Shown: in pieces, positions 13,192-20,376 of the stretch | How the letters are laid out: every line of letters starts with the position of its first letter | How positions within the stretch are numbered: the stretch's first letter is position 1 | Virus record (IMG/VR): IMGVR_UViG_3300037804_000222 | Span: 26,772 to 90,771 of that record | Reading direction: 5' to 3' (one strand) | From: a virus | Length of the DNA: 64,000 bases | Notes under the pieces: generated by a model | Seen by the model: only the letters and a program-made list of their open reading frames with translations | The model's database searches: none | What the model was told of the DNA's origin: nothing | Position numbers and translations under genes: made by a program

Positions 13192-13299
13192 AATACTTGT
13201 TTTTTAATCTTGTCTCTTCAAAATGCAGCACTCAAGTAGCTTACTCTCTTTGGGATAAAGGTATTAAATATTTTTAACTTTACTATCTTATTTTTAAAT

Positions 13300-13450
13300 A
13301 GTTAAGTTGTAAGTAATCCTTACAAGTTGATCAAAAGCGAAGCCTGAATAAGACATCTCCTACCCAGAACTTTACTTTTGATGCTGATTTTACCTAAGCT
13401 CCCCAGCTTAGGATTTCTTACCTATTGATTCTCATTAATAGGATTTTCAC
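13300..13450 (-). ncRNA. structured non-coding segment (4-5 hairpins)
   Basis: CCTATT/AATAGG, CCTAAGCT-GGGG-AGCTTAGG, ATCAAAAG/CTTTTGAT enclosing CTGGGTAGGA-GATG-TCTTATTCAG (G-U pairs favour minus strand), TTGTAAG/CTTACAA. Confidence 0.55.
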
Positions 13451-13483
13451 TGTTTGCCCAACTCACGCTTGGTACTCTCGTTG

Positions 13484-13620
13484 TCAAAGAGGCAGGAGTC
13501 GAACCTGCATGAAGGACATCACAGCCTTTATGTGGACTTTTACCACTTCCGAATTACCAAGACTCAGTTAATTACTCCGCTTCTTTAGAAATTCTGCGTT
13601 TACCGTTTCGCCACTCCTTG
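13484..13620 (-). ncRNA. tRNA-like RNA (Leu-type body) with expanded anticodon and variable arms
   Basis: Acceptor CAAGGAG/CTCTTTG + A73; TG-GCG-AAACGGTAAA-CGC D arm; GCAGG-TTCGACT-CCTGC T arm; GAATT/AATTC stem encloses 34 nt instead of 7. Confidence 0.75.
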
Positions 13621-13653
13621 ATGCGCAGCACTCACGCAGCTTGCTCTCGTATT

Positions 13654-13792
13654 AGACCAAACGATAATTTTAGTTGTAGTATCACGTACTACGAGTGGTC
13701 TTTGTAAGAAAATAGGCTCTCAGGTTTTGTTTCGAAGTCTTACGGTGCAGTATCTGAGATTATTAGAGTTTAACTGCGTTCACTCATGCCTA
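13654..13792 (-). ncRNA. structured RNA with pseudoknot upstream of the tRNA-like element
   Basis: TAGGC/GCCTA closing a junction with GAGT/ACTC and TCTCAG/CTGAGA stems; loop-loop GCAGT/ACTGC; then AGACCA/TGGTCT enclosing GTAGTA-CGTGA-TACTAC. Confidence 0.5.
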
Positions 13793-20056: not shown

Positions 20057-20278
20057 CTATGCCCATATGATTCCGCCATCTGCGATGGTGCTAATCTCAG
20101 GCACTTCAGTGCCTTTAGCAAATTCGTCGCTACAGTCGCCTTCTAGGCGGATGAAGCAAGTATTTGCATTGGTAGAGACCACTCGGTCTTTACCAAGAAT
20201 TTTGCGAGTTTCGAACCCGCTTAAACCTACGACAGTTTGACCGTCTTTAACTTGAACCCAAAAACATTTAGTTTTCAT
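20057..20278 (-). CDS. hypothetical early protein
   Basis: 73 aa, own terminator, higher GC. Confidence 0.65.
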   Translation of the reverse strand: MKTKCFWVQVKDGQTVVGLSGFETRKILGKDRVVSTNANTCFIRLEGDCSDEFAKGTEVPEISTIADGGIIWA

Positions 20279-20376
20279 AATGTAGCAAAATTTAGTTAGG
20301 GGGCATTAGTGCCCAAAACTTAGAGGGGGTGGGGTTATATAAGTGGTCTACTCTCTCATTTCCGTAAACAAAATTT

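What the first reader, a model, noticed from the sequence alone, without database searches (positions are those of the whole stretch)
13222..13651. Three copies of a ~28-nt pseudoknot motif with compensatory changes
Seen (minus strand): AAGAGAGTAAGCTACTTGAGTGCTGC (13250-225), ACGAGAGTACCAAGCGTGAGTTGGGC (13481-456) and ACGAGAGCAAGCTGCGTGAGTGCTGC (13650-625). Stem 1 covaries (AAG/CTT versus ACG/CGT). Stem 2 covaries (GY-A-AGC/GCT-GC versus GT-A-CCA/TGG-GC). GAGAG and TGAGT are invariant. Two copies directly flank the tRNA-like RNA at 13484-13620. Inference: a minimal H-type pseudoknot acting as a processing signal, exonuclease block, protein-binding aptamer or small-ligand/toxin sponge (compare type III antitoxin pseudoknots). 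I do not recognise it as a named family.
Basis: partly seen in the sequence, partly recalled or inferred. Interest (0 to 1): 0.7.

Follow-up and report, generated by a model that had tools for sequence, protein, structure and literature searches.

The report
Phage mini-pseudoknot RNA boundary element
The three repeats are real copies of a tiny knotted RNA fold found in over 200 uncultured phage contigs and in no RNA catalogue; it sits at the start of structured non-coding RNA modules and probably shields them from RNA-degrading enzymes, but this function is untested.

Summary
The three minus-strand copies (13650-13625, 13481-13456, 13250-13225) are the only exact copies in the 90.8-kb phage genome. 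Chance predicts 0.12.

They belong to a large family, with over 200 IMG/VR contigs and 58 distinct sequences. It is absent from Rfam 15, from 50,697 GenBank phages, and, apart from one mis-binned phage contig, from 596 Gb of bacterial and archaeal genomes.

Covariation supports an H-type pseudoknot. S2 pairs nt 7-12 with 22-26, and every pair shows double changes. S1 pairs nt 1-4 with 14-17; pair 2-16 is C-G in 26 sequences, A-U in 30, U-A in 1 and mismatched in 1. G-U pairs place the fold on the sense strand.

Flanking the tRNA-like RNA is not the rule. In relatives the two copies lie 6-7 nt apart, and here the tRNA-like is an insertion into that linker.

The general context is non-coding (188 of 193 copies). 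The knot follows an ORF stop, a tRNA-like 3' end or an earlier module. It lies 8-15 nt before a hairpin that opens the next module.

My best reading is a cis-acting roadblock or 5'-end cap, like plant-virus coremin xrRNAs (confidence about 0.35). Protein site, ribozyme and promoter readings remain open.

The scan has noted "coremin-like mini-pseudoknots" on at least 10 other genomes. I could not verify that they are the same family.

The parts
13625..13650 (-). Pseudoknot copy 1 ('A-type': stem 2 = CAAGC/GCUGC). It ends 4 nt upstream of the tRNA-like RNA. The base after it (13624) is G, a rare exception to the usual A.
   Evidence: Covariance-model score 44.6 bits.
13456..13481 (-). Pseudoknot copy 2 ('B-type': stem 2 = UACCA/UGGGC, with a U-G pair). 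It starts 2 nt after the discriminator base of the tRNA-like RNA. It is followed by A (13455), a 13-nt A-rich spacer and a hairpin.
   Evidence: 37.1 bits. The same 26-mer is the commonest variant in IMG/VR (34 instances).
13225..13250 (-). Pseudoknot copy 3 (A-type with the compensated A2-U16 pair in stem 1). It lies 5 nt after a Bacteroidota-like -7 box and 33 nt before the ATG of a 33-aa membrane-peptide ORF (13191-13090).
   Evidence: 38.7 bits. This copy is absent at the same place in relatives L004-L006.
13484..13620 (-). tRNA-like RNA with acceptor, D and T arms and a 68-nt insert instead of an anticodon arm. It is inserted into the 7-nt linker of an A-B pseudoknot pair.
   Evidence: Rfam RF00005, 33.4 bits. 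ARAGORN does not call it. The insertion is shown by the alignment with L034, L106 (empty linker) and L121 (filled).
13290..13455 (-). Downstream structured module that copy 2 introduces. It comprises the spacer, an AAAUCC element, hairpin 1 (13442-13421), hairpin 2 (13412-13393) and a longer stem. The same design follows B-type copies in most contigs.
13256..13263 (-). TAnnTTTA box resembling the Bacteroidota -7 promoter element, 5 nt upstream of copy 3. This is an inference only.
   Evidence: Read from the sequence. A similar box lies within 15 nt upstream in only 12 of 196 contexts.

Best explanation
What it is (well supported). It is a 26-27-nt RNA H-type pseudoknot. Stem 1 pairs nt 1-4 with nt 14-17. 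Stem 2 pairs nt 7-12 with nt 22-26, and nt 9 is bulged. The loops are conserved (G5-A6 and G18-A19-R20-Y21), and an A follows the motif. It belongs to a large, uncatalogued family restricted to phages. It works as a modular boundary element on the sense strand of non-coding stretches. It starts within a few nucleotides of whatever precedes it: an ORF stop codon, a tRNA-like 3' end, an earlier RNA module, or occasionally a promoter. It lies 8-15 nt before the first hairpin of the next structured RNA module or 5' leader.

How it most likely works (inferred). It acts in cis as a compact mechanical roadblock or 5'-end cap. The long transcript may be cut just upstream, for example at the tRNA-like RNA or in an AU-rich linker, or it may decay from its 5' side. 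The knot would then leave at most a few unpaired nucleotides at the new 5' end. That would stop 5'-end-dependent nucleases, and perhaps ribosomes running off the upstream ORF, so the downstream non-coding module survives and accumulates. This is the logic of the coremin-type exoribonuclease-resistant RNAs of plant RNA viruses, which are also a mini-pseudoknot, a spacer of about 10 nt and a structure-only hairpin.

In this window, copies 1 and 2 are one such tandem pair that has received a tRNA-like insertion. Copy 3 heads the leader of a small membrane-peptide gene.
For: Structure.
- Covariation on 58 distinct sequences gives 92% of cells paired, against 73% in shuffles and 18-45% with slid partners.
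- The independent stem 1 test gave a Watson-Crick partner in 28 of 29 sequences.
- A C7-G26 swap occurs in L061:730, and a bulge-less 27-nt variant in L088.
- The alternative plain hairpin (pairs 14-21 and 15-20) is broken in a third of the sequences.
- U-G pairs at 8-25 in 18 of 58 sequences place the fold on the sense strand.

Family and specificity.
- The three IMG/VR scans returned at least 119 (capped), 25 and 73 contigs.
- In IMG/VR, 120 of 132 pattern matches have full stem 2 pairing. In 596 Gb of cellular genomes only 2 of 55 do, and one of those is a phage contig.

Context.
- 188 of 193 copies lie outside ORFs, and 38 start within 10 nt of an upstream same-strand ORF end.
- Copies start 1-4 nt after the discriminator of three different tRNA-like families.
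- 92 of 97 B-type copies are followed within 26 nt by an AAGUCC-like word, against a 1.8% background.
- The stem after that word starts 8-15 nt after the knot (8-10 nt in 85 of 133 contexts) and closes with at least 6 bp in 113 of 133.
- Tandem pairs with a 33-nt period are common.

Shared factor.
- The motif occurs in unrelated phage backbones: PolA plus SF2-helicase crAss-like contigs, and contigs with exonuclease VIII-like, resolvase-like and sigma-like genes. The sigma-like gene is absent from this genome. This points to an intrinsic property or a host factor rather than a dedicated phage protein.

Precedent.
- The coremin architecture, its resistance to Xrn1 and its stalling of ribosomes are described in PMC10520033 and PMC10321173.
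- An RNase E/G family enzyme is present in the Bacteroides control genome.
Against: - No RNA data: no RNA run was listed, so no RNA end has been mapped.
- Nested folding of the 26-mers is weak (-2.5 to -4.5 kcal/mol) and no better than shuffles.
- Five Bacteroidota genomes show no RNase J above the curated cut-off. If the hosts are Bacteroidota, which is itself an inference, a 5'-to-3' exonuclease may not exist there, and the target would have to be RNase E/G-type 5' sensing or something else.
- The strictly conserved loop bases would fit specific recognition by a protein, or catalysis, equally well.
- The knot pairs its hairpin loop with the 5' tail, whereas coremin pairs it with the 3' spacer.
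- The base after the knot is nearly always a purine (A), which would also fit a transcription start.
Confidence: 0.35

Rival explanations
1. The knot is a recognition site for a trans-acting protein. This could be a host or phage endoribonuclease that cuts the array into modules, as Cas6 does at CRISPR repeats or RNase III at T7 intergenic sites. It could also be an RNA-binding protein that nucleates on the knot and spreads over the A-rich spacer, as T4 gp32 does on its own leader pseudoknot.
For: Loop bases are invariant beside freely covarying stems. The knot is a constant element between variable modules. Tandem pairs have a fixed 33-nt period. The base after the knot (A) and the spacer word are conserved.
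Against: No RNA-processing or RNA-binding protein family co-occurs within about 7 kb in 224 loci. The top clusters are replication and recombination genes and small unknown proteins. The motif occurs in unrelated phage backbones, so a phage-encoded partner is unlikely. A host partner cannot be tested here.
Confidence: 0.25
2. The knot is a small self-cleaving ribozyme, alone or together with its spacer and downstream hairpin, that cuts at or near its own 5' edge. It would release the upstream RNA, much as HDV-like theta ribozymes trim phage tRNA 3' trailers.
For: Its position 1-4 nt after tRNA-like 3' ends mirrors the position of theta ribozymes in Bacteroidota phages (PMC10879173). There is no sequence constraint upstream and there are invariant unpaired purines. 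A conserved C-A step lies at the 3' edge.
Against: It cannot be drawn as an HDV-like nested double pseudoknot, and no ribozyme family of Rfam 15 matches even at E = 10. Only about 5% of contexts are tRNA-linked. The gap to the discriminator varies from 1 to 4 nt. This genome has no DRB0094-type ligase and no CCA-adding enzyme, the genes enriched with theta ribozymes. A natural 26-nt ribozyme would be unprecedented.
Confidence: 0.1
3. The element acts at the DNA level. It could be a promoter for a phage-directed polymerase with the start at the conserved A just after the motif, possibly hairpin-dependent like N4 virion-RNAP promoters. It could also be a replication or recombination signal in the origin-like non-coding region.
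For: It sits right after terminator-like U-runs, ORF ends and tRNAs, and 20-35 nt before purine-rich ribosome-binding-like sites in some contigs. The next base is a purine in nearly all cases. It lies in replication-gene neighbourhoods and, in some contigs, next to iterons. Modules differ between relatives at exactly these repeats.
Against: A double-stranded promoter would not show compensatory changes in two interleaved helices. U-G pairs (18 of 58 at 8-25) would be A-C mismatches on the other strand, so the fold is specific to the sense strand. Module stems around it show the same G-U asymmetry. The sigma-like gene found near many copies is missing from this genome.
Confidence: 0.1
4. The knot is a decoy or sponge RNA. 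It could mimic a type III antitoxin that neutralises a ToxN-like host toxin, mimic another nuclease target (the 5' half resembles the sarcin-ricin loop word), or act as a small-ligand aptamer.
For: Tandem pseudoknot repeats of about 33 nt recall ToxI-type arrays. It sits beside tRNA-like RNAs with abnormal anticodon loops, which could themselves be decoys. Up to 10 nt are identical to the sarcin-ricin loop core in copies preceded by AGU (the loop sequence is from memory).
Against: No structurally intact copy lies in bacterial or archaeal DNA of 185,579 species (only a chance match and a mis-binned phage contig keep stem 2), so there is no host RNA to mimic at this sequence level. Arrays are pairs of non-identical copies or dispersed single copies, not multi-copy tandems. 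C2 covaries with position 16 rather than closing a GAGA tetraloop with G7, and the 3' strand of the sarcin-ricin bulged-G motif is absent. No expression platform overlaps the knot.
Confidence: 0.08

Closest known systems
Coremin motif (xrRNA-C) and its Watson-Crick variant xrRNA-WCC of beny-, cucumo- and many other eukaryotic RNA viruses (PMC6546385, PMC10520033, PMC10321173)
   Same: Both are about 20-27-nt H-type mini-pseudoknots with a 4-bp stem 1. Both have a conserved purine-rich hairpin loop: nt 15-20 here read CGUGAG or CGUGAA, which fits the published YGNNAD rule, and CGUGAA is one of the Xrn1-resistant loops tested. Both have a spacer of about 8-10 nt with a conserved 3' end, followed by a hairpin conserved only in structure. 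Both are found in intergenic regions and after ORFs, often repeated in tandem.
   Different: There is no sequence identity with the coremin word. Here the hairpin loop pairs with the 5' tail, not the 3' spacer. Stem 2 is 5 bp plus a bulge instead of 3 bp. The loop G that coremin requires can change to U here if the 5' tail compensates. The carrier is a DNA phage whose hosts have no Xrn1. Nuclease resistance is untested.
Theta ribozymes (minimal HDV-like ribozymes next to phage tRNAs; PMC10879173)
   Same: Both are small structured RNAs placed within a few nucleotides of the 3' end of tRNA(-like) genes in phages related to crAss-like and Bacteroidota phages. Both also occur in non-coding regions without a tRNA, in the sense orientation.
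   Different: The topology differs: there is no P1/P1.1/P2/P3 nested double pseudoknot and no J4/2 cytosine context. No Rfam HDV-family hit was found. tRNA linkage holds for only about 5% of contexts. The associated ligase and CCA-adding genes are absent from this genome.
Type III antitoxin RNAs (ToxI, CptI, TenpI; from general knowledge)
   Same: Both are short pseudoknotted repeat units of about 33-45 nt in tandem, and phages can carry mimics.
   Different: No adjacent toxin gene was found. There are no copies in bacterial genomes. Units are non-identical pairs or dispersed singles that punctuate other RNAs.
5'-terminal stabiliser structures of bacterial and phage mRNAs (ompA 5' hairpin, T4 gene 32 leader pseudoknot; from general knowledge) and luteoviral frameshift pseudoknots (BWYV; discussed in PMC10321173)
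   Same: Size and H-type geometry match. The structures lie within a few unpaired nucleotides of an RNA 5' end or processing site, and an A/U-rich single strand follows.
   Different: Those are single, gene-specific elements. This one is a mobile, sequence-conserved module reused many times across unrelated phages.

Membership tests
H-type RNA pseudoknot (structural class) | Two interleaved helices, each supported by compensatory changes, on one strand | tested here: met
   stem 2 has 5 of 5 pairs with double changes. Stem 1 pair 2-16 is CG 26, AU 30, UA 1, mismatch 1. Independent test. G-U pairs occur only on the sense strand.
Coremin / xrRNA-C, xrRNA-WCC | Conserved hp1 (GUC...GAC stem) with loop YGAD or YGNNAD | tested here: not met
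   The stem sequences are unrelated. Nt 15-20 fit YGNNAD in canonical copies, but the second-position G is U in 29 distinct variants, compensated in the 5' tail.
Coremin / xrRNA-C, xrRNA-WCC | Hairpin loop pairs with the 3' end of the downstream spacer (CUAC, or Watson-Crick CUC) | tested here: not met
   The loop pairs with the upstream tail (stem 1). No covariation was found between the loops and the spacer or the AAGU word.
Coremin / xrRNA-C, xrRNA-WCC | Spacer of about 8-10 nt followed by a second hairpin conserved in structure only | tested here: met
   the stem starts 8-10 nt after the knot in 85 of 133 contexts (range 8-15). A stem of at least 6 bp closes in 113 of 133. Its sequence varies apart from the CCU/AGG base.
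Coremin / xrRNA-C, xrRNA-WCC | Stalls a 5'-to-3' exoribonuclease (and ribosomes) in vitro | not testable with these tools
   Needs an enzymatic assay.
Theta / HDV-like ribozymes | Nested double pseudoknot (P1, P1.1, P2, P3, optional P4) with a catalytic C in J4/2 | tested here: not met
   Only 9 nt lie between the strands of stem 2, which leaves no room for P2 and P3. No complement to a P1 strand exists on either side (read). No HDV-family Rfam hit at E up to 10.
Theta / HDV-like ribozymes | 5' edge within +/-5 nt of a tRNA 3' end | tested here: inconclusive
   True here and in about 5% of distinct contexts, with gaps of 1-4 nt. Most copies have no tRNA upstream.
Type III antitoxin RNA | Multi-copy identical tandem repeats directly upstream of a ToxN/AbiQ-type toxin gene, with counterparts in bacterial genomes | tested here: not met
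   Only pairs or singles occur. No structurally intact copy lies in bacterial DNA of 185,579 species. The ToxN family search of this genome was empty, but its control did not ring, so that part says nothing.
Any Rfam 15 family (riboswitches, ribozymes, phage RNAs) | Covariance-model match | tested here: not met
   only tRNA hits.
N4-type hairpin promoter / double-stranded promoter | Structure on the template strand (or none), with conserved blocks at polymerase-contact spacing | tested here: not met
   The fold is specific to the sense strand (G-U pairs). It is a pseudoknot rather than a simple hairpin with a 3-nt loop. No shared sigma or polymerase gene was found.
Sarcin-ricin loop mimic | GAGA tetraloop closed by C-G plus the bulged-G motif with its GGACC-type 3' strand (sequence from memory) | tested here: not met
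   C2 covaries with position 16, not with G7. Position 8 is Y, not G. The upstream AGU is present in only about a third of A-type copies.

The most novel reading that the evidence does not exclude
The knot, alone or with its spacer and the hairpin behind it, is a new and exceptionally small class of self-cleaving ribozyme that phages use to cut structured RNA arrays and tRNA-like RNAs apart.
Probability: 0.08. Interest if true: 0.9.

Novelty: new variant of a known kind. Interest (0 to 1): 0.6.

Why it matters
The fold is very small and strongly conserved, it is restricted to phages, and many unrelated uncultured phages reuse it as a cassette boundary. That makes it a good handle on three things. 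First, how phages build, process and stabilise their abundant and largely unexplained non-coding RNA regions. Second, whether bacteria-infecting viruses use the same roadblock principle as the exonuclease-resistant RNAs of eukaryotic viruses. Third, a possible 27-nt portable RNA-stabilising or insulating part for synthetic biology. It also shows that the odd tRNA-like RNA here is a cargo dropped into a pre-existing slot, not the reason the motif exists.

Tried and rejected
- Rfam 15, at gathering threshold and at E up to 10, on the window, on the 681-nt region and on eight related loci: only tRNA hits.
- Drawing the motif as an HDV-like, hammerhead, twister, pistol or hatchet ribozyme: no fit by eye and no model hit.
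- Plain extended hairpin with a GNRA loop (pairs 14-21 and 15-20): broken in the GAAC variants.
- Outer closing helix between the 5' flank and the bases after the motif: no pairing signal.
- Tertiary contacts between the loops and the spacer or AAGUCC word: mutual information shows only lineage effects.
- Nested folding energy: not significant.
- blastn of motif-bearing stretches against 50,697 GenBank phages: only chance hits or none.
- Covariance-model search of the highly transcribed non-coding left end of Cellulophaga phage phi14:2: nothing convincing (best 9 bits). The published RNA-seq on that phage therefore cannot be tied to this motif.
- Public RNA runs: no RNA holder was listed.
- Co-occurring proteins in 224 loci: replication and recombination genes, a sigma-like protein, a zinc-ribbon peptide and unknowns, with no RNase, ligase or RNA-binding family.
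- The sigma-like protein, a DRB0094-type ligase and a CCA-adding enzyme are absent from this genome. The ToxN search was uninformative.
- Promoter box upstream of the motif: present in only 12 of 196 contexts.
- RNase J in five Bacteroidota genomes: nothing above the cut-off.
Full report
**The observation**

The core pattern (GAGAG, nine free bases, TGAGT) occurs exactly three times in the window and in the whole 90,771-bp virus record from which the window is taken. All three are on one strand. Dinucleotide-preserving shuffles give 0.12 matches on average and never three.

Rfam's tRNA model matches 13620-13484 at 33.4 bits, with a 68-nt insertion where the anticodon arm should be. ARAGORN does not call it. 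Copy 1 ends 4 nt before this tRNA-like RNA and copy 2 starts 2 nt after its discriminator base.

**The genome**

The genes in this part of the window lie on the minus strand. They include a family A DNA polymerase and an SF2 helicase. The nearest cultured or named relatives of the polymerase are crAss-like phages at 26-30% identity. Earlier first-reader notes on the same genome mention a giant virion RNA polymerase. A Bacteroidota host is therefore plausible but not shown.

**A large family**

Fourteen relatives found through the helicase already carried further copies. Together they give 196 distinct sequence contexts and 58 distinct 26-mers.

The family is not in Rfam 15. blastn does not find it in 50,697 GenBank phage records.

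A scan of one genome from each of 185,579 bacterial and archaeal species served as a control. The same 26-letter pattern, which does not enforce pairing, hit 55 times in 596 Gb, about what chance gives. Only two of those hits could form stem 2. One of the two lies on a low-GC contig that is plainly a mis-binned phage, with the same tRNA-like and downstream module as locus L068. In IMG/VR, by contrast, 120 of 132 hits of the same pattern form all five stem 2 pairs. The element is therefore phage-specific, and its pairing is not a by-product of the search pattern.

**Structure**

I number the motif 1-26. Stem 2 pairs 7-26, 8-25, 10-24, 11-23 and 12-22, with base 9 bulged. The bulged base can be A, G or U. 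One variant (L088) has an extra base that turns the bulge into a sixth pair. Another (L061:730) swaps the otherwise invariant G7-C26 to C-G.

Stem 1 pairs 1-17, 2-16 and 3-15, and often 4-14. Pair 4-14 is U-A or U-G in half of the sequences and A opposite G or A in the rest.

On 58 distinct sequences, 92% of cells are standard pairs. Shuffled partners give 73% and slid partners give 18-45%. Pair 2-16 is C-G in 26 sequences, A-U in 30, U-A in 1 and mismatched in 1.

Most copies had been collected with patterns that fixed stem 1, so I ran a direct test. I scanned IMG/VR for copies in which position 16 was forced to be anything but G and left positions 1-4 free. Position 2 was the Watson-Crick partner in 28 of 29 distinct sequences.

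The competing nested fold extends the hairpin to a C-GUGA-G tetraloop. It fails in the frequent variants that read GAAC at 18-21.

U-G pairs at 8-25 occur in 18 of 58 sequences, including the commonest one. On the opposite strand they would be A-C mismatches. The fold therefore belongs to the transcribed sense strand.

Nested-only energy calculations do not distinguish the 26-mers from shuffles, so the case rests on covariation.

Invariant or nearly invariant bases are G3, G5, A6, G7, C15, U17, G18, A19 and C26. This also holds in copies that no pattern had constrained. The next base is A in 121 of 125 contexts.

**Two subtypes and the tRNA-like RNA**

'A-type' copies have stem 2 of the form YAAGC/GCURC and show the variation in stem 1 and in positions 20-21. 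'B-type' copies have other stem 2 sequences (ACCA/UGGG, GGGC/GCUA, UUCC/GGAG and more).

In many contigs an A-type and a B-type copy stand 6-7 nt apart, giving a 32-33-nt period (31 cases). The window's closest relatives, L034 and L106, have exactly this empty pair, and L034 has the same downstream sequence as the window. In the window and in L121, the 137-nt tRNA-like RNA sits inside the linker.

Even so, B-type copies begin 1-4 nt after the discriminator of at least three unrelated tRNA-like families, several with abnormal anticodon loops. This accounts for only about 5% of distinct contexts.

**General context**

Of 193 copies, 188 lie outside any ORF of 80 aa or more on either strand. Thirty-eight start within 10 nt of the end of an upstream same-strand ORF. 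The next ORF usually starts 100-400 nt downstream.

What follows the knot is regular:
- 92 of 97 B-type and 42 of 98 A-type copies are followed within 26 nt by AAGUCC or a one-letter variant, against a 1.8% background.
- The CC of that word opens a stem that closes with at least 6 bp in 113 of 133 cases.
- That stem starts 8-15 nt after the knot, and 8-10 nt after it in 85 of 133 cases.
- The stem is usually followed by CAA.
- The stem contents vary widely and show G-U-preserving changes.

Several such modules can follow one another, each introduced by a knot. Some units end in terminator-like hairpins with U-runs. Others run into a purine-rich ribosome-binding-like site and a start codon.

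Copy 3 of the window heads the leader of a 33-aa membrane-peptide ORF. It lies 5 nt after a Bacteroidota-like -7 box. Such boxes precede only 12 of 196 copies.

**Who carries it**

I clustered the proteins encoded within about 7 kb of the motif in 224 loci. No RNA enzyme emerged. The common neighbours are an exonuclease VIII-like protein, a resolvase-like endonuclease, a sigma-like protein, a PDDEXK nuclease, a zinc-ribbon peptide and unknowns. The crAss-like helicase and polymerase occur in about 30 loci.

The motif therefore occurs on unrelated phage backbones. The sigma-like gene is missing from this 97%-complete genome. This argues for an intrinsic RNA property or a host factor, and for exchange of the non-coding cassettes between phages.

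**Mechanism**

The element is a constant, compact knot. It abuts whatever lies upstream and introduces a structured RNA downstream. I see four families of explanation.

1. A cis-acting roadblock or 5'-end cap (confidence about 0.35). After a cut at the tRNA-like RNA or in an AU-rich linker, or during decay from the 5' side, the knot would leave only a few unpaired bases at the new 5' end. That would protect the downstream module. This matches the short, constrained upstream gap, the tandem redundancy and the placement after stop codons. It also matches the architecture of the coremin class of exoribonuclease-resistant RNAs: a mini H-type pseudoknot with a 4-bp stem 1, a loop obeying YGNNAD, a spacer of about 10 nt and a structure-only hairpin, able to stall Xrn1 and ribosomes (PMC10520033, PMC10321173).
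I checked the features myself. The spacer-plus-hairpin feature is met, and nt 15-20 fit the loop rule in canonical copies. The sequence, the pairing partner of the loop (5' tail here, 3' spacer there) and the stem sizes differ. It therefore resembles coremin in design but is not a member.
   - Against this reading: five Bacteroidota genomes lack RNase J at the curated cut-off. The enzyme being blocked would have to be of the RNase E/G type, which is present in Bacteroides, or something else.
2. A protein recognition or processing site (0.25). This is favoured by the invariant loop bases, but no candidate partner was found.
3. A small self-cleaving ribozyme (0.10). This is suggested by the analogy with theta ribozymes after tRNAs in Bacteroidota phages (PMC10879173). 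The fold is not HDV-like, tRNA linkage is rare, and the ligase and CCA-adding genes that accompany theta ribozymes are absent here.
4. A DNA-level promoter or replication signal (0.10). This would explain the position after terminators and the purine at the next base. It is hard to reconcile with two interleaved covarying helices and with strand-specific G-U pairs.

Decoy, antitoxin-mimic or ligand-aptamer readings are least likely (0.08). No host genome carries a copy that can form the fold apart from a single chance match, and there is no toxin gene or expression platform.

**What could not be done**

No RNA run was listed. The one marine crAss-like phage with published transcript data, phi14:2, has abundant and long-lived intergenic RNAs of unknown function (bioRxiv 10.1101/2020.03.07.982082). 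It does not carry this motif in its first 12 kb.

**Relation to earlier notes of the scan**

Agents working on at least 10 other genomes have reported 24-28-nt 'coremin-like mini-pseudoknots' placed after genes and before tRNAs in phages, giant viruses and an archaeal virus. I could not compare sequences, and a word look-up with this motif found none of them. Whether this family belongs to the same superfamily is open.

**Verdict**

The tRNA-flanking idea is replaced by a more general boundary role. The function is inferred, not shown.

Noticed in passing
window 13709-13792 (-): An 84-nt structured element lies right after the helicase stop codon. It has a closing stem (UAGGC/GCCUA), two hairpins whose loops can pair (GCAG with CUGC), and a U-run. 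It is conserved in L004-L006, L010, L012 and L014, and in diverged form in L009-type loci. A pseudoknot copy often follows it directly. No Rfam match.
   Followed up: partly
window 13676-13692 (-): A small hairpin (GUAGUA-CGUGA-UACUAC) whose loop repeats the CGUGA word of the motif. It is conserved, with covarying stems, in L004-L006, L018, L019 and L121.
   Followed up: no
window 13290-13455 (-), and many loci (e.g. L024, L116, L128): A recurrent 'terminal module' lies after the last pseudoknot. Two hairpins with G-rich loops (such as UGGGGA) are each preceded by an A-rich linker ending in GU or AU. A longer stem follows, opening with GUCAGYGUUGAAAG-like sequence, just before the next start codon. 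It has no Rfam match and may be a separate RNA family.
   Followed up: partly
L027:3663-3738, L028:6792-6866, L068, L093, L121:12573-12722: Several families of phage tRNA-like genes have unusual anticodon loops (ARAGORN calls AGU, AUA or 4-base 'anticodons') or a long insert. Each is followed at 1-4 nt by a B-type pseudoknot. A second, 93-nt 'tRNA-Asp(GUC)' with a long variable arm lies about 210 nt further downstream in the same loci.
   Followed up: partly
L027:3340-3405, L028:6490-6545, L068, L093: Four to five iterons (TTAGACCCC-type repeats) and an AT-rich stretch lie directly upstream of the promoter-like box that starts the non-coding RNA array. This looks like a replication origin next to the array.
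   Followed up: no
window 20197-20292 (-): ARAGORN's 'tRNA-SeC (TCA)' is not supported by Rfam at gathering or at E up to 10. It overlaps ORFs and is probably a false positive.
   Followed up: partly
L268:4871-5080, L028:7213-7402, L121:12263-12452 and 34 loci in all: A conserved peptide of about 63-70 aa with CxxC and CC motifs (weak Zn_ribbon_8 hit) is encoded next to many arrays. Function unknown.
   Followed up: partly
window 13225-13250 versus L004-L006: Copy 3 is present in the window but absent at the homologous place, between the promoter-like box and the small membrane-peptide ORF, in relatives. Single pseudoknot units are therefore gained or lost as cassettes.
   Followed up: partly
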